Source: a virus
DNA length: 64,000 bases
IMG/VR virus record: IMGVR_UViG_3300032288_002265
Coordinates: 1 to 64,000 of that record
Reading direction: 5' to 3' (one strand)
Part shown: in pieces, positions 10,574-48,696 of the stretch
How the letters are laid out: every line of letters begins with the position of its first letter
How positions within the stretch are numbered: position 1 is the first letter of the stretch
Program-made: the position numbers and the translations under genes
Notes under the pieces: generated by a model
Told to the model about the DNA's origin: nothing
The model's database searches: none
What the model saw: only the letters and a program-made list of their open reading frames with translations

Positions 10574-13500
10574 ATGCCTAACCAGCTTGTTGAGTGGTGG
10601 CGCACACAGCGCCCCGAGGATGCCTCTTTGTCGGACGACAGTCTGACGATGAAGATCGCGTCGATGGCCCCGGACTACAAAGCCCAGGGCAAGGACATCT
10701 TCGCCGACTACCCAGACTTCACGGCCGACTACAACTCGCTGCTCGAGCGGGCTGGCAAGGAGTACCGCCGTGGCACCGCGACGCTCGGCAACGAGGTTAG
10801 CCGTGGCTTGCAGCGTGGCATCAGCGGTCTGAAGTCGACGGCCTACGGTGCTGCGGCTCTGGCGGCTGACGCCATTCCTGGCACGTTCGCTGATCCTGCT
10901 CGAGATGCCCTGCTGCGGAAGTACAAGACTGCACAGGAGGATGCGTCTCAGGAGGATGTCACCCCGGCAGTTGGGTCGTACAAGGAGGTTGGAGATCTGC
11001 GAGATGCTGGTCAGTACGTCGCCGGCCTCGTTGGTGAAGGTCTACCGTCCGTCGCCGAGTCCATGGTTACTGGTGCCATTGGTGCTGCGGCTGGCAGCGA
11101 GGTGCCCGTGGCCGGCAACATTGCTGGCGGTATCGCCGGCATCGTCGGAAAGCAGGCGGCGAAGCGGCTCATCGCCAAGAAGATCGCTGGCTTCACGGCC
11201 CAGGAGATCGAGGAGGCCGCGCTCAAGGGCGTCGGATCCGAGGCGCTGAAGCAGCTGGTGCGTGCCGAGACCAAGGCGATCACGTCCACTGCAGGCGCTG
11301 CGCTCGCCAGCACGCTCAACAGCTACGGCTTGAGCGCGGGTGAGATCTACGGCGAGCTCGCGACCAACCCGAACGTCAAGCCTGAGGACGCCCTGGGCAT
11401 CGCTGTTGCCGCTGCGATCCCGGCTGCGATCGCCGACACGGCTCTGCCCGGGTACGTGATCAACAAGTCGGGCGTGCTGCGCCGGCTCGCTGGTCAGATC
11501 GAGAACTTTGGTGAGACCGAGAAGCGTGGGTTCTTTGGGTACATCACCAGGCTTGCTGCCGAGGTTCCCAAGGTCTCGACCATGGAGGCTGGCACCGAGG
11601 CGTTCCAGGAGCTCGTCAACATCGCCGCGACCAAGTACGGCGAGACGGGCAAGTTCGACCTATCACTGACTGAGGCCGAGAAGGAACGGATCATCAACTC
11701 CGGTATCGGTGGCGCTGTCGCTGCCACCACCACCGCCCCGCTCGCTGCCGCCCGCTTCGACAAGACGGAGCAGGAGGCTACCGCCCAGGCACCGGCTGCT
11801 GCTGCTCCTGCCCAGGCGCAACCTGGCTCTCCAGCCGCGCCCGCCGCACAGGCAGCGCCTGCTGATCCCACTGCTCCTGCTGCTCAACAGAACCAGCCAG
11901 ACACCGCCACGGACGTGCTCGAGGCTGGGTACGACACGAACATCGACGGCATCAAGGATCTCGCCCGCAGAAAGCTGGCTGGTGATGACGTGTCTGCCGA
12001 GGAGGCTGCACTGAAGCCTGATGCCGCTCGCCGCTACCAGCGCGAGGTGATCGCTGCGTCCGAGGCGAAGGCTGCTGCTGAAGCTACTGCTCCTACCGAG
12101 ACGGCTGCGACTGCCACGGAAGAGAAGAAGACTGAACCTGAATCGAAGAGCGCCCTCACTGCTGAAGCGCAAGATCTCCTGAGGAATGTGGATGCCGGCG
12201 GCGTTCCTGTATTCATCACCGCAAACCTCAAGCGGATTGCGTCTGAGAACGGCGTCACGATCGAGGGATCTGACACTTCGAACAGCGTGATTGAGAAGCT
12301 GCGGAAGAAGGGTGCGGAGACCGATCCTGCTCCGGATTCGACATCTACTGATGCTGGTGGCGAGGAGAAGAAGTCGACGATCAACCTCACCCCGATCGAT
12401 TACACCGACAACCCGTCCTGGGATGCGGCCACCAGGACGTTGAACCGCACGAGCGGATCGGCCCGCGTCATAGATTACTCCGACCGGAAGATCGTCCTGG
12501 TCAACGTGAACGGGCTCAACATTCCGTTTTACCTATCTACCGGACAGGCTAAAAAAAAGGAGGTCGCTGCCGGCAAGTGGTACCCGATCTTTGGCATCTC
12601 CTCGGATGGGTGGCTCAACAAGGGTTCCCAGAAGGAAATCAACAACTTCTACGGGAGCGAGGAGCTTAAGAGGATCGCCCAGCAGTTGGACGCTGAGCTT
12701 GGTAAGGATGTCAAAGCGGACATTAAAGTGTCCAACAGCGCGGTGTTTTCCTCGGTCAACGGGTTCCTAAAGGAGCTCGGGCTACAGCCTGTCGAGAACG
12801 AGCTCAGCACCACGGTCGATGATCTCAAGAAGAACATCTCAGCAGTCATCGCTGAGATTGAGCGTCGCAAGGCTTCTGCCTCCGAGCCCACTCCTGCTCC
12901 CACTCCCGCACCGGCTGCTGATGCTGCACCGACCAACGTCGACGCCGATCCTGTCGACCAGGCTGAAGAGGGTGAAGACTTGCAGCTTTCTACGGAGGAC
13001 TCTGCGGCGAAGCAGTCCATGTCGAAGGACGCCAAGGCTGCTCAGAGCCAGGTCGAACTGCTCAAGAAGAAGATCGCCGCGATCGAAAAGCTGACGGAGC
13101 AGCGATCGAAGGAGATCGAGCCGGCCCAGTCGTTGATGGATCGGTACATCGCCGCCGATGCGATCACCAACAAAGAGGAGCGGGCGGACGCTCTCAAGGC
13201 GCTCGAGGGTGAGCTCAAGAAGTACGGCGGCGTCGAAGGCCTGCAGAGCCGGCTCCAGACCCTGAATGTCCTGGAGACCGACAAGAACGGGAAGCCGAAG
13301 CTGCTGCTGAAGCCGGTCAGTGACGACCCGCGCAAGACAGTGTCGACGCGGCTGAACTACTACGCCAAGAAGCTGAACGAAGCGCAGTCGAAGTTGATGA
13401 TGATCAACGACGACATCGACACGCTGATGATGTCTGCCGCTCCGTCCGAGCGCAGCCGGATGCCGGCGTACTACGAGTCCGGTGACGAGTCGGAGCAGTC

Positions 13501-47037: not shown

Positions 47038-48105
47038 TCAGTTCTGTGTGTTTTTGAGGTGGTTGAAGTAGGCCTCAAGCCCGAGGTGAACCAACGTGCC
47101 CAGACGGAGAGCCTCGGACGCCTCATCGTCTTGGATTTTGCGGACCTGCTCTTCGTAGTGCAGGAAATGGTGGCGGGCGCATCGACGAAGCGACGACGAC
47201 CGCGAATTGGTCAGAAGCTGGCGTTCGCCGTCTGACTGGATCTTGAGCTCGTTGTGAGCGGACTTGGTCTTGGCAAACCGGATGCCATCGACCGAGGCGC
47301 GGCCCGAGCAGAGATCGAAGAACTCGCACGTGCGGTTGTAGGCGTTGCACGCATTCGGATTGCGCGGCCACAACTGCTGCTTGCGGAAGTAGAGGATCTG
47401 CTGGCTCAACTGCCAGGCGTCGCTCATGTACTCCAAGATGTCGGAGTCGAGGCGGGCGATCTCCTTCTGGGCATAGAAGTTGAACGGGTTCTCGCGCAGG
47501 ACTCCCAGCACGCGGGTCTCGAACTCCTCCGGGGTCTCCGGTCGAGTCTGGACGACGTAGCCGGCCTCGGTGTCACCGGTCTCGCGCCACTTCTTGCCGT
47601 CCTTCGTCCGCACACGGTTGCCGTTCGCATCGAGTACGATCTTGGAGCCGGCCTCGTCACGCAGCGGGATCTGCGCCTGGCGTTGACCAGGCTTGCCCAT
47701 CACGTCGTAGATGACGCCACCCACGTCCTGGCCGGTCTGCAACGCGCCCAGGAAGTACTTCGAGACCTGCGTGTCCATGCGAAGCCGGTCCCAGTAGTTG
47801 GACTCCGGAGCCACGTCATCGCTGGTGGTCTTGTGCTCAAGGACGATCAGCTTGCCGTCGGAGCGACGACGAAGCAGGGCGTCCATCTTGCCGGCCTCAG
47901 AGAACGAGCGGCTCGTGCCTTCGGTCTCCGGGTTCAGCAGCGGGAACGCGAACTCGCGCTCTACGTCGACGACCTGGTAGGCGCTCCAGTTGTTGCACCA
48001 CACCGCGTCGTAGACGGTGACCATCGCTCGGGCCTTGGCGACCGAGAACAGATCGTCACTCTTGATTGCGGTCAGTGCGACCGCCAGTTCCTCTCTCATG
48101 CTCAT
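47038..48105 (-). CDS. PD-(D/E)XK (Cas4/AddB-like) exonuclease, circularly permuted
   Basis: VEREF, GKMD, EHKT, QVSKY and C-x6-C-x5-C; the usual N-terminal motif sits at the C-terminus. Confidence 0.85.
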   Translation of the reverse strand: MSMREELAVALTAIKSDDLFSVAKARAMVTVYDAVWCNNWSAYQVVDVEREFAFPLLNPETEGTSRSFSEAGKMDALLRRRSDGKLIVLEHKTTSDDVAPESNYWDRLRMDTQVSKYFLGALQTGQDVGGVIYDVMGKPGQRQAQIPLRDEAGSKIVLDANGNRVRTKDGKKWRETGDTEAGYVVQTRPETPEEFETRVLGVLRENPFNFYAQKEIARLDSDILEYMSDAWQLSQQILYFRKQQLWPRNPNACNAYNRTCEFFDLCSGRASVDGIRFAKTKSAHNELKIQSDGERQLLTNSRSSSLRRCARHHFLHYEEQVRKIQDDEASEALRLGTLVHLGLEAYFNHLKNTQN

Positions 48106-48455
48106 GGTAGTATTTCGATTACCGTTTCTTCTTGGTCTTTTTTGCTGACCTTTTCTTGTCGAATTTCGAGCTCGATAAGGTCTGGAGAATCATCCCGCAG
48201 TACGCCCCCATATCGAAGGAGGTCGATGACGTACTTGGGGCAGACGTTGTCGGGGTCGAGGAGCCGGCAGCGCCTGCTCGTAACCACGACTCGAATGCGC
48301 GTTTTGCCTCCTTCTTTTCTCGGTGCCGCTGCCAGTGGTTCATTCCAAACAGCCGGTTGAGGCTGGGCAGTCGGTACTTGAGTGTGATCCTGAGTCCCCC
48401 TGGTGGAATGCCGTTGAAGGAACTCGGCGAGTTGCTCTTCATTCCAGCGGGGCAT
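48102..48455 (-). CDS. RusA-like resolvase, catalytic half (frame B)
   Basis: RLLDPDN...K...IDLL...GVLRDDS; its stop overlaps the nuclease ATG. Confidence 0.75.
   Translation of the reverse strand: MPRWNEEQLAEFLQRHSTRGTQDHTQVPTAQPQPAVWNEPLAAAPRKEGGKTRIRVVVTSRRCRLLDPDNVCPKYVIDLLRYGGVLRDDSPDLIELEIRQEKVSKKDQEETVIEILP
48119..48442 (-). CDS. Nested ORF carrying the RusA-like N-terminal half (frame A)
   Basis: ITLKYRLPSLNRLFGMNHWQRHREKKEAK; its ATG overlaps the upstream stop (ATGA). Confidence 0.55.
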   Translation of the reverse strand: MKSNSPSSFNGIPPGGLRITLKYRLPSLNRLFGMNHWQRHREKKEAKRAFESWLRAGAAGSSTPTTSAPSTSSTSFDMGAYCGMILQTLSSSKFDKKRSAKKTKKKR

Positions 48456-48642
48456 TGGTGAGTTTGGATAGGACGCTCGGCCAGTGGAATCTGAGGTCTC
48501 GGTTGTTGAGCCTGACAACAGGTATCTTACCCAAGGCTGCGTACTTCCTGACACGTCTCGCGCTGTATCCGATCTTCTCAGAAAGCTCGGATACCGTAAT
48601 CAACCTTTCGGAATCCAGTGGATGTTCAGAGGTTTTTTTCAT
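48439..48642 (-). CDS. Excisionase-like winged-HTH protein
   Basis: LITVSELSEKIGYSARRVRKYAALGKIPVVRL...LRF. Confidence 0.75.
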   Translation of the reverse strand: MKKTSEHPLDSERLITVSELSEKIGYSARRVRKYAALGKIPVVRLNNRDLRFHWPSVLSKLTNAPLE

Positions 48643-48652
48643 GCAGCAAATA

Positions 48653-48696
48653 TGCACTCAATGTGCTCTCAAGCTGCACTCAAGGTGCGTTCAGGG
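48653..48696. repeat. 4 x 11-bp tandem repeat (TGCACTCAAGG-like), putative operator
   Basis: TGCACTCAATG / TGCTCTCAAGC / TGCACTCAAGG / TGCGTTCAGGG directly upstream of the Xis-like gene. Confidence 0.75.

What the first reader, a model, noticed from the sequence alone, without database searches (positions are those of the whole stretch)
48102..48455. RusA-like resolvase split between two fully overlapping reading frames
Seen: frame A (48442-48119) encodes LRITLKYRLPSLNRLFGMNHWQRHREKKEAKRAFESWLR, the strand, PSLN motif and long helix that begin phage RusA-like proteins, and then becomes low-complexity. Frame B (48455-48102) has a Pro/Gln-rich start and then the catalytic half RIRVVVTSRRCRLLDPDNVCPKYVIDLLRYGGVLRDDS. 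Both look translated: A's ATG overlaps the Xis-like stop and B's stop overlaps the nuclease ATG. A's helix (KEAKRAFESWL) and B's first strand (TRIRVVVTS) use the same nucleotides, so one frameshift cannot give both. Inference: either a two-chain enzyme assembled from overprinted genes, or a -1 frameshift near GAG GCA AAA C (about 48300-48312) giving a shortened fusion.
Basis: partly seen in the sequence, partly recalled or inferred. Interest (0 to 1): 0.85.

Follow-up and report, generated by a model that had tools for sequence, protein, structure and literature searches.

The report
RusA-like resolvase from two overlapping genes
A phage gene for a small DNA-junction-cutting enzyme appears to be divided between two reading frames of the same DNA, and this odd layout is conserved across well over a hundred related environmental phages, so it is a real design and not an error.

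Summary
On the minus strand, ORF A (48442-48119) and ORF B (48455-48102, -1 relative to A) overlap almost completely. This is not an assembly error. In 115 of 118 homologous sites the N-terminal PS(L/W)N motif lies in frame A, at a distance of 2 mod 3 from the catalytic D(P/E)DN of frame B; 102 of them have exactly 110 nt. No single-frame relative was found.

Selection switches frames along the locus. Frame A is constrained over strand-PSLN-HW-helix. Frame B is constrained over the RusA-like catalytic half (PHROG RusA-like in 38 of 48; D67, D69, N70, K74, D89 invariant). About 24 nt (48299-48275) are constrained in both frames.

Each frame stays open across the other's constrained part more often than synonymous shuffles predict, and the third frame does not. 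Frame A usually has a start codon just before its strand. Frame B has its own upstream start and conserved N-terminal motifs. A slippery heptamer occurs in only 5 of 45 sequences.

Best reading (0.55): two separately translated overlapping genes whose products assemble into a two-chain RusA-like resolvase. Assembly has only weak support: complex score 0.35 against a best control of 0.01. Sequence searches do not significantly link A to RusA.

The parts
48102..48455 (-). ORF B ('rusA-C'), 117 aa plus stop. It has an N-terminal motif, an unconstrained linker and a RusA-like catalytic half.
   Evidence: full-length homologues of 117-122 aa; 38 of 48 family members hit PHROG RusA-like phrog_34, best E 3e-9. 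R62, D67, D69, N70, K74, D78 and D89 are invariant in 48 sequences.
48119..48442 (-). ORF A ('rusA-N'), 107 aa plus stop, +1 relative to B and nested inside it. It has a strand, the PSLN motif, HW, a long helix and then an unconstrained S/T- and K-rich tail.
   Evidence: a profile of the N-part finds 345 cluster representatives at E<=1e-3. AF2 gives pLDDT 91-97 over residues 21-50 and a helix at 36-60.
48411..48455 (-). N-terminal motif of B, MPRWNEEQLAEFLQR (predicted helix 6-15).
   Evidence: The motif is conserved in distant clades (P0004, P0006, L036, L054, L073, L084, L120). By regex, 14 of 122 B proteins carry this type and 42 of 122 carry an alternative (L/M)FP(N/R)AS..F..AN type. predicts the helix.
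48269..48394 (-). The part of A under selection (L17-A58): strand LRITLKY, PSLN (48367-48356), HW, EKK and the helix up to ...SWLRAGA.
   Evidence: the most variable codon position is A's wobble; 63% of 158 substitutions between close pairs are synonymous in A and 17% in B. S27 and N29 are invariant; P26, W37, K43 and L54 are at least 90% conserved.
48275..48299 (-). Dual-coded stretch. Frame A reads A49-A56 (AFESWLRA, the end of the helix). Frame B reads R53-S60 (RIRVVVTS, the first strand of the catalytic half).
   Evidence: total entropy is 3.09 bits per codon here against 3.90 and 3.97 in the flanks. B wobble entropy is 0.15, 0.50 and 0.00 at three codons. The residue patterns of both frames hold together in 38 of 45 sequences.
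48105..48305 (-). Catalytic half of B (K51-P117): strand, RxRLLDPDN, helix, DD, then two strands.
   Evidence: pLDDT 87-98, with E54-62, H73-82, E94-102 and E110-116; the top VIA-align match is E. coli RusA 1q8r_A residues 52-116 (Z 4.4, rmsd 2.8, 64 aligned), tied with unrelated beta-alpha-beta folds; 62% of 260 substitutions are synonymous in B and 20% in A.
48439..48442 (-). ATGA overlap: the ATG of A and the TGA stop of the upstream HTH gene. The ATG of B lies 13 nt further upstream, at 48455.
   Evidence: read directly from the sequence.
48102..48105 (-). ATGA overlap: the stop of B and the ATG of the PD-(D/E)XK nuclease gene. The stop of A (48121-48119) lies 14 nt upstream of that ATG.

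Best explanation
The locus holds two same-strand overlapping genes, and the two are translated separately. ORF A starts at its own ATG and makes a small protein. Its only constrained part is an N-terminal strand, a PSLN turn and a long helix. These are the elements that open a RusA resolvase and that B lacks. ORF B starts 13 nt upstream in the -1 frame. It makes a short conserved N-terminal motif, a roughly 35-residue unconstrained linker (the stretch that overlaps A's constrained part), and then the RusA-like catalytic half with the Asp/Asp/Asn/Lys/Asp set. I infer that the A and B chains associate non-covalently to complete the RusA-like fold, probably as an A2B2 particle by analogy with the RusA homodimer. 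The particle would resolve Holliday junctions for the phage's recombination module (PD-(D/E)XK exonuclease and an AAA_24/Sak4-like ATPase lie next door). What is shown: the conserved out-of-frame layout, frame-specific selection, the dual-constrained junction, openness of both frames, separate starts, and the RusA-like catalytic half of B. What is inferred: that both products are made, that they bind each other, and that the complex cuts junctions.
For: (1) Layout. PS(L/W/E)N sits in frame +1 at a distance of 2 mod 3 from D(P/E)DN in 35 of 37 loci and in 115 of 118 sites. The three exceptions are two contig-edge truncations and one PSMN in the same frame.
(2) No single-frame form. None of the 150 best A-profile hits has a real catalytic motif in frame; my pattern matched once (DLDK in P0153), which I judged spurious. 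None of the 117 newly returned B-profile hits has the N-half in frame.
(3) Selection switches frame. Across 22 disjoint close pairs, 63% of substitutions are synonymous in A and 17% in B over the N-half, against 20% and 62% over the catalytic half.
(4) Dual constraint at 48299-48275. B wobble positions are nearly invariant where A needs Leu/Phe, Ala and Leu. A wobble positions are biased to C where B needs Arg. Both patterns hold in 38 of 45 sequences.
(5) Open frames. Frame A is open for 42 codons past the anchor in 22 of 24 representatives, against 12.3 expected from synonymous shuffles of B. Frame B is open across A's N-half in 24 of 24, against 16.9 expected. The third-frame control is open in 1 of 24, against 1.08 expected.
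(6) Separate starts. Many loci have a stop and then ATG or GTG directly before A's strand. B has an upstream start with conserved N-terminal motifs whose register relative to A varies. In the window, B has no ATG, GTG or TTG between 48455 and its catalytic half.
(7) No conserved slippery site: 5 of 45 sequences.
(8) B is RusA-like. PHROG RusA-like families are hit by 38 of 48 and 33 of 48 members. Counterparts of the catalytic residues listed for RusA (D70, D72, N73, K76, D91; passages of PMC10956419) are invariant in B. The B model aligns to RusA residues 52-116 only.
(9) The spacing from PSLN to DPDN is 36.7 codons here, against about 57 residues in canonical RusA of the same phylum. A single reading therefore cannot hold both the helix and the strand.
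(10) Complex prediction gives weak support: ipSAE 0.35 (runs 0.35, 0.38, 0.35), best of 3 controls 0.01. The mark was reached by 58 of 80 solved complexes and 2 of 110 mismatched pairs. Scores of 0.60 or under came from only 7 of those 80 solved complexes and from both mismatches. Partner pLDDT was 66-69, and the runs agree in at least 85% of contacts. Because RusA itself is solved, this pass may reflect likeness to that structure.
Against: Sequence methods do not show that A is related to RusA. None of 48 members hits a RusA PHROG at E<=0.01, and 1 of 48 does at E 0.016. Pfam gives nothing. hhalign places strand-PSLN on RusA's ELPWPPSVN, but only at E 0.16. Adding A (with an X at the break) to B's profile does not raise the local score against canonical RusA, and lowers the global E only from 9.6e-4 to 3.9e-4.

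The complex score is in the weak band. B alone folds confidently. Foldseek found no RusA match, and the VIA-align RusA match (Z 4.4) is tied with unrelated folds.

Most loci show no Shine-Dalgarno sequence before either start. There are no expression, peptide or ribosome-profiling data.

Two database proteins carry the 'B-type' N-terminal motif in the same frame as the A part (P0065, P0115). The close-pair counts in the 24-nt stretch (39% and 39% synonymous, 31 substitutions) would also fit a frame switch in the middle of it. The case for dual coding therefore rests on the family-wide column analysis.
Confidence: 0.55

Rival explanations
1. B alone is the working enzyme: an N-terminally remodelled RusA-like nuclease with its own N-terminal motif. 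A is a separate overprinted protein with a different role, such as a small DNA-binding, regulatory or inhibitory protein, and does not complete the RusA fold.
For: A has no significant sequence link to RusA. B alone gives a confident model of its catalytic half plus an N-terminal helix of pLDDT about 82. The complex score is only weak. Selection on both frames fits this reading as well as the two-chain reading.
Against: B aligns only to RusA residues 52-116. It lacks the first strand, the PPSxN turn and the first helix, which every canonical RusA recovered here carries in the same chain. A supplies exactly that order of elements, strand, PS(L/W)N, then helix, starting at its N-terminus. A and B always occur together. 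The complex score of 0.35 against controls of 0.01 is above the mark, though weak.
Confidence: 0.25
2. A programmed -1 ribosomal frameshift, or transcriptional slippage, moves ribosomes from A into B between the HW motif and the catalytic half. This would give one fused, shortened RusA-like chain, possibly alongside the unshifted A product.
For: The frame relation (B = A - 1) is the one used by classical -1 frameshifting. The window has A_AAA_C at about 48306-48301. One database protein, P0003, is such a fusion, with A's N-part joined to B. Selection switches from A to B along the locus.
Against: A canonical X_XXY_YYZ heptamer in frame A occurs in only 5 of 45 relatives, at three different positions. 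A or T runs of 6 or more occur in 8 of 45. The window's A_AAA_C site is absent from L004. Both frames are constrained over the same 24 nt, which no single shift point explains. Frame B is kept open upstream (24 of 24 against 16.9 expected) and carries conserved N-terminal motifs and start codons, which frameshift-only expression does not need. Frame A stays open about 45 codons past any possible shift site (22 of 24 against 12.3 expected). Any single fusion lacks either the helix or the strand. P0003 comes from one 924-nt contig and has a second indel at its 3' end, so it is probably an error-bearing read-through.
Confidence: 0.12
3. The locus is a broken RusA gene, either a pseudogene or an assembly indel, and the second open frame is chance.
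For: A lone sequence with two half-genes in different frames would usually suggest this.
Against: The same offset recurs in 115 of 118 sites from independent viral, metagenomic and genomic assemblies, down to about 30-35% protein identity. Frame-specific purifying selection is present. Both frames are kept open while the third is not.
Confidence: 0.01

Closest known systems
E. coli RusA Holliday junction resolvase (PDB 1Q8R; Pfam PF05866; PHROG phrog_34 and phrog_1682)
   Same: The catalytic half of B carries the R..D-x-D-N...K...DD set that matches the RusA residues D70, D72, N73, K76 and D91 (passages of PMC10956419). It hits RusA-like PHROGs. Its model aligns to RusA residues 52-116. The setting is a phage recombination module.
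   Different: Canonical RusA is one chain of about 120 aa, with strand, PPSxN and helix 1 followed in the same frame by the catalytic part. Here the first elements lie in another reading frame, on a separate ORF with its own start. The junction is read in both frames. B has an extra N-terminal motif and linker. Pfam RusA matches neither frame.
Embedded phage gene pairs such as lambda Rz/Rz1 (recalled from my own knowledge, not from any call)
   Same: One gene lies in the +1 frame inside another on the same strand, both are translated, and the two products work as one complex.
   Different: Rz and Rz1 are two different proteins (spanin subunits). Here the two ORFs appear to carry the two halves of a single small enzyme fold, and the constrained parts barely overlap (about 8 codons).
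Programmed -1 frameshift genes (phage tail chaperone G/GT, dnaX; recalled). PRFect paper PMC10885494, passages read.
   Same: Two frames offset by -1, with the N-terminal part in one frame and the C-terminal part in the other.
   Different: There is no conserved slippery heptamer (5 of 45). The downstream frame has its own start and a conserved N-terminus. Both frames are open throughout and are co-constrained over 24 nt. PRFect lists 'RusA/RuvC' among genes 'known to contain a frameshift', but the reference that names a resolvase in the stretch of the list I saw is the 1991 ruvC identification paper. I did not see all of references 35-42.
Out-of-frame remodelled gene families (PMC8788219; search listing and abstract start only)
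   Same: A frameshift changes which frame of an existing gene is read.
   Different: In that concept, as far as the part of the abstract I saw goes, a gene is remodelled out of frame. Here both the old N-half and the old C-half seem to be kept, as two co-expressed ORFs.

Membership tests
RusA resolvase family (Pfam PF05866 / PHROG RusA-like) | Significant match to the family's sequence profile | tested here: inconclusive
   Pfam RusA matches neither frame, nor the six-frame virus record. PHROG RusA-like families match B in 38 of 48 (phrog_34, best E 3e-9) and 33 of 48 members; the window's own B scores E 1e-3. A matches in 0 of 48 at E<=0.01 and 1 of 48 at E 0.016.
RusA resolvase family | Catalytic residues Asp70, Asp72, Lys76 and Asp91, plus Asn73 (E. 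coli numbering; passages of PMC10956419) | tested here: met
   D67, D69, N70, K74 and D89 of B are invariant in 48 sequences. hhalign aligns DPDN..K..DD to the canonical D-DN-K..DD at E 2-3e-4. The Lys lies one residue further from the Asn than in canonical RusA. Arg69 has no exact counterpart; R62 (invariant) and R64 (at least 90%) lie 5 and 3 residues before the first Asp.
RusA resolvase family | RusA fold | tested here: inconclusive
   For B's model, VIA-align ranks 1q8r_A first of 48,161 chains (Z 4.4, rmsd 2.8, 64 aligned; model 51-117 against RusA 52-116). It is tied within 1 Z with 4-OT/MIF-type folds. Foldseek gave no RusA hit.
RusA resolvase family | One polypeptide carrying strand 1, PPSxN and helix 1, followed by the catalytic part | tested here: not met
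   The two parts are always in different frames: 115 of 118 sites, 0 of 150 A-type hits and 0 of 117 B-type hits.
RusA resolvase family | Dimeric enzyme that cleaves Holliday junctions | not testable with these tools
   Needs biochemistry.
Programmed -1 ribosomal frameshift genes | Conserved slippery heptamer at the frame junction | tested here: not met
   Present in 5 of 45 dereplicated relatives, at positions -69, -60 and -42. The window's A_AAA_C site is not conserved in L004.
Programmed -1 ribosomal frameshift genes | Only one frame is coding at any position, and the downstream frame has no start of its own | tested here: not met
   A dual-constrained 24 nt exists. B has upstream starts and conserved N-terminal motifs.
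Programmed -1 ribosomal frameshift genes | Downstream stimulatory RNA structure | not tested
   No RNA fold or covariation analysis was run.
Same-strand overlapping (embedded) gene pairs | Both ORFs are kept open across homologues beyond expectation | tested here: met
   22 of 24 against 12.3 expected for A, 24 of 24 against 16.9 for B, and 1 of 24 against 1.08 for the third frame.
Same-strand overlapping (embedded) gene pairs | Purifying selection at the protein level in both frames | tested here: met
   Each frame is constrained in its own part (63% vs 17% and 20% vs 62% synonymous), and both are constrained over 48299-48275. A's tail and B's linker show no constraint beyond staying open.
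Same-strand overlapping (embedded) gene pairs | Both products are made | not testable with these tools
   No proteomic or ribosome-profiling data are to hand.

The most novel reading that the evidence does not exclude
This is an obligate two-chain RusA, probably A2B2. The subunits are encoded by overlapping frames of a single 354-nt stretch and are co-inherited as one module across hundreds of phage lineages. The junction of helix 1 and strand 2 is read twice, in two frames. Nearby alternative start codons set the subunit ratio. B's conserved N-terminal motif (the MPRW..L..F or FPNAS..F..AN type) docks the enzyme to another phage or host factor.
Probability: 0.45. Interest if true: 0.85.

Novelty: new variant of a known kind. 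Interest (0 to 1): 0.8.

Why it matters
If this reading is right, it is a natural case of a very small single-domain enzyme split into two chains by overlapping reading frames. It is conserved over deep divergence, and a short segment is under selection in both frames. That makes it a clean system for three questions: how a frameshift mutation can be rescued by fragment complementation instead of reversion, how overlapping genes become fixed, and how two starts 4-13 nt apart share ribosomes.

It also has a practical side. Gene callers keep only one of the two ORFs. In the one annotated phage record found (BK063671.1), only the frame-A ORF is annotated, as a hypothetical protein. In the protein databases, A-type and B-type ORFs appear separately, mostly unnamed or as hypothetical proteins. 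A widespread phage resolvase family is therefore being missed or half-annotated.

Tried and rejected
I rejected the pseudogene or assembly-error reading because the offset recurs in independent assemblies.

I rejected the -1 frameshift at A_AAA_C because the site is not conserved.

I asked whether A's K/R-rich tail composition is selected. It is fixed entirely by B's protein sequence, with no variance under synonymous shuffles, so the test says nothing. That call's '0 stops against about 10.2 expected' covers 22 loci, from which I had dropped the two with frame-A stops (L020, L037). It is therefore biased, and I do not use it. The unbiased test is.

Profile searches of A2 and A3 against PDB sequences found nothing relevant. 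Foldseek against the PDB with the B model found no RusA. The ESM Atlas search with A residues 14-60 gave no usable hit.

hhalign of A against canonical RusA was not significant. Reading A and B together, with an X at the break, gave no real gain.

Substitution counts in B's N-terminal motif within the window's own clade were too few to decide: 2 to 7 substitutions per pair (one search's method applied).

Synteny (TerL, HTH, A/B, nuclease, AAA_24) holds only in the near clade: nuclease in 7, AAA_24 and HTH in 6 each and TerL in 5 of the 117 loci searched. It therefore says little about function elsewhere.

Literature searches for RusA together with frameshift or overlapping-gene terms found no description of this layout. 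PMC5764923 (passages read) mentions RusA and a tail-chaperone frameshift separately. PMC10885494 (passages read) lists RusA/RuvC loosely. No sequencing-run or read-laying step was used.

Rows dropped: L038-L040 (spurious RVRLLDPDN matches in Erythrobacter and Aurantiacibacter); L041 (record BK063671.1; my anchor pattern did not match it, so only its annotation was read); L001, L026 and L086 from the alignments (identical to the window, internally duplicated, and at a contig edge).
Full report
WHAT IS THERE. On the minus strand of the window two ORFs overlap almost completely. ORF A runs 48442..48119 (107 aa). ORF B runs 48455..48102 (117 aa from its ATG). B is -1 relative to A. A's ATG overlaps the stop of an upstream MerR/excisionase-like HTH gene (ATGA), and B's ATG lies 13 nt further upstream. 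B's stop overlaps the ATG of a PD-(D/E)XK exonuclease gene, which is followed by an AAA_24 (Sak4-like) ATPase gene. The large terminase gene lies upstream of the HTH gene. The window belongs to a 73,327-base IMG/VR virus record with no Pfam RusA match. Pfam recognises neither frame. PHROGs gives B a weak RusA-like hit, phrog_34 at E 1e-3, over residues 45-114, and gives A nothing.

THE LAYOUT IS CONSERVED, SO IT IS NOT AN ERROR. A database search with B returned full-length homologues of 117-122 aa that share B's N-terminus as well as its catalytic half. Pattern scans with their alignment fetched three sets of loci:
- 33 viral loci;
- 7 genomic loci, of which 4 are real (Verrucomicrobium sp., Chthoniobacteraceae, Ca. 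Udaeobacter) and 3 spurious;
- 80 metagenomic loci.

In 35 of 37 loci, and then in 115 of 118 sites across 117 loci, a PS(L/W/E/Q)N motif lies in the +1 frame at a distance of 2 mod 3 upstream of B's D(P/E)DN. The distance is 110 nt in 102 sites; the other values are 107, 113, 116, 122 and 128. The three exceptions are two contig-edge truncations and one PSMN in the same frame. No relative has the two motifs in one frame. An exhaustive profile search with A's N-part found 345 cluster representatives at E<=1e-3 and 101 at E<=1e-10. Among the best 150, none carries a catalytic motif in frame. A profile search with B found 789 proteins at E<=1e-3 among 3594 candidates. Among the 117 newly returned proteins of the 120 listed, none carries the N-half in frame.

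WHICH FRAME IS SELECTED WHERE. I took 45 sequences, dereplicated at 85% nucleotide identity from 100 gapless ones, and anchored them on the first Asp of DPDN.
- From A's strand to about codon -20, the most variable codon position is A's wobble.
- From about codon -5 onward, it is B's wobble.

In 22 disjoint close pairs, 63% of 158 substitutions over A's N-half are synonymous in A and 17% in B. Over B's catalytic half, 20% of 260 are synonymous in A and 62% in B.

Between these two regions, B codons -14 to -7 (window 48299-48275) are constrained in both frames.
- B's wobble position is almost invariant at three codons (entropy 0.15, 0.50, 0.00, against a mean of 1.58 in the B-only part). These are exactly the codons where A has Leu/Phe, Ala (38 of 45) and Leu (43 of 45).
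- A's wobble is biased to C exactly where B has Arg (37 of 45 and 33 of 45).
- Total entropy is 3.09 bits per codon, against 3.90 and 3.97 in the flanks.
- The residue patterns of both frames hold together in 38 of 45 sequences.

The close-pair counts in this short stretch (31 substitutions, 39% and 39% synonymous) could also fit a frame switch in its middle. The case for dual coding therefore rests on the column analysis.

BOTH FRAMES ARE KEPT OPEN, AND EACH HAS ITS OWN START. I permuted synonymous codons within each gene, which is a conservative test because it keeps each gene's own codon set. I used 24 representatives that I chose from L001-L037.
- Frame A is open for 42 codons beyond the anchor in 22 of 24, against 12.3 expected.
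- Frame B is open across A's N-half in 24 of 24, against 16.9 expected. The hand product of the per-locus fractions is about 2e-5.
- The third frame, as a control, is open in 1 of 24, against 1.08 expected.

A's stop falls 43-51 codons after the anchor in 31 of the 37 loci, even where B runs on for 30 or more further codons. It is later in four (L008, L019, L021, L036). The early exceptions are L020, where A stops right after its helix, and L037. In several clades frame A has a stop followed directly by ATG or GTG and then the strand. By a selection rule that preferred that range, 39 of 50 loci have a start 6-13 codons before the Pro of PSLN.

Frame B always has a start at or upstream of A's start. 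It carries conserved N-terminal motifs: MPRW(N/T)..(Q/D)(L/Y)..(F/Y) as in the window, or (L/M)FP(N/R)AS..F..AN. By regex these occur in 14 and 42 of 122 B proteins, and the remaining 66 include variants. The register of the second motif relative to A's strand differs between loci, so it is not a by-product of frame A. In the window, B has no start codon between 48455 and its catalytic half. Without recoding, the catalytic half can therefore only be made by reading through the 50 codons that overlap A. Shine-Dalgarno sequences are mostly absent before both starts.

WHAT THE TWO PRODUCTS LOOK LIKE. B's family hits RusA-like PHROGs in 38 of 48 and 33 of 48 members, best E 3e-9. D67, D69, N70, K74 and D89 are invariant. 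They correspond to the RusA residues D70, D72, N73, K76 and D91 named in the passages I read of the review PMC10956419. AF2 with the 48-row alignment gives B a mean pLDDT of 81. The model has an N-terminal helix (6-15), a low-confidence linker, and then strand-helix-strand-strand at pLDDT 87-98. Foldseek found no RusA. VIA-align against 48,161 representative chains ranks E. coli RusA 1q8r_A first (Z 4.4, rmsd 2.8, 64 aligned). It aligns model residues 51-117 to RusA residues 52-116, but the hit is tied with unrelated beta-alpha-beta folds. B therefore corresponds to RusA minus its first 50 or so residues.

AF2 gives A a mean pLDDT of 72. Residues 21-60 score 82-97, with a long helix at 36-60 that covers the dual-coded stretch. 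The tail is of low confidence. A's order of elements, N-terminal strand, PS(L/W)N, then helix, is that of canonical RusA from the same phylum (ELPWPPSVN...). In those proteins the motif-to-Asp spacing is about 57 residues, against 36.7 codons here. Only two readings together can therefore supply both the helix and the strand.

Sequence statistics, however, do not link A to RusA. None of 48 members hits at E<=0.01, and 1 of 48 hits phrog_1682 at E 0.016. hhalign gives E 0.16. Reading A and B together with an X at the break brings no real gain.

DO THEY BIND? One complex job was run with B 46-117 and A 12-62, using my own alignments. It returned 'weak support'. The ipSAE was 0.35 (runs 0.35, 0.38, 0.35), and the best of 3 controls was 0.01. 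The mark was reached by 58 of 80 solved complexes and 2 of 110 mismatched pairs. Scores of 0.60 or under came from only 7 of those 80 and from both mismatches. Partner pLDDT was 66-69, and the runs agree in at least 85% of contacts. Because RusA is a solved structure, a pass for its two halves may reflect that likeness. It does not show that these chains bind.

FRAMESHIFTING. A canonical slippery heptamer in frame A between HW and the catalytic half occurs in 5 of 45 sequences, at three different positions. A or T runs of 6 or more occur in 8 of 45. The window's A_AAA_C site is not kept in L004. The one fused database protein, P0003, comes from a single 924-nt contig and carries a second indel at its end. 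I could not exclude a low level of unprogrammed shifting.

DISTRIBUTION. The module moves independently of its neighbours, since synteny with the window holds only in the near clade. It occurs in marine, freshwater and soil metagenomes. In sampled cellular genomes of the phylum of G001 it is rare: 1 of 201, and that one is G001 itself, against 22 of 201 for Pfam RusA. In the one INPHARED record that matched (BK063671.1), the only ORF annotated at the site is the frame-A one, as a hypothetical protein.

VERDICT. The best-supported explanation (0.55) is two separately translated overlapping genes that together make a two-chain RusA-like resolvase. The main rival (0.25) is that B works alone and A is an unrelated overprinted protein. 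Frameshift fusion (0.12) and artefact (0.01) are disfavoured. My literature searches found no description of this layout. I rate it a new variant of a known kind, with interest 0.8.

Noticed in passing
window 48642-48693: Four copies of a roughly 19-nt unit sit at an exact 11-nt spacing (TGCACTCAA.. on the + strand, which reads TTGAGTGCA on the gene strand). They lie in and just before the start of the HTH gene, directly after the terminase gene. This looks like an operator or iteron-like array with helical periodicity. It also suggests that the HTH gene starts at ATG 48642 and not at the listed GTG 48657.
   Followed up: partly
P0003 (database protein, from a 924-nt contig): This is a natural 'fusion': A's N-part joined to B after HWQR, and at the other end read through into the nuclease's MSMREELAVAL. 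That needs two indels relative to the window. It is a single sequence and is probably error-bearing.
   Followed up: partly
P0065 and P0115 (database proteins): The motifs that normally open frame B (MPRWTLDDLIRF and FPNASQSFY) are here in the same frame as A's strand-PSLN part. I could not fetch the DNA to see whether this is an indel, an error or a true variant.
   Followed up: no
L026 (IMGVR_UViG_3300037156_000077) and P0157: Both have an internal duplication of the catalytic region of B: the stretch from ...RVRPLDPDNFAGS... or ...VRFTLFRVRCLDPDN... onward occurs twice. This is either a tandem duplication or an assembly artefact. JGI names P0157 'Holliday junction resolvase RusA-like endonuclease'.
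   Followed up: no
L099-L101 (contig JGI25616J43925_10000004, 105,714 nt): The same locus occurs three times at an exact spacing of 39,813 nt. The contig is probably a concatemer-like assembly of a phage genome of about 39.8 kb.
   Followed up: no
L041 = BK063671.1 positions 12539-12826: In this annotated phage record the only ORF called at the site is the frame-A one, as a hypothetical protein. The B-frame match (12496-12831) is not annotated.
   Followed up: partly
window 47038-47126: The AAA_24 ORF as listed (ATG 47126) starts 89 nt inside the nuclease ORF. Its Pfam match begins only at residue 46, so a later start (MSILAK...) seems likely.
   Followed up: no
window 1-64000: ARAGORN found no tRNA or tmRNA genes in the window.
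   Followed up: yes
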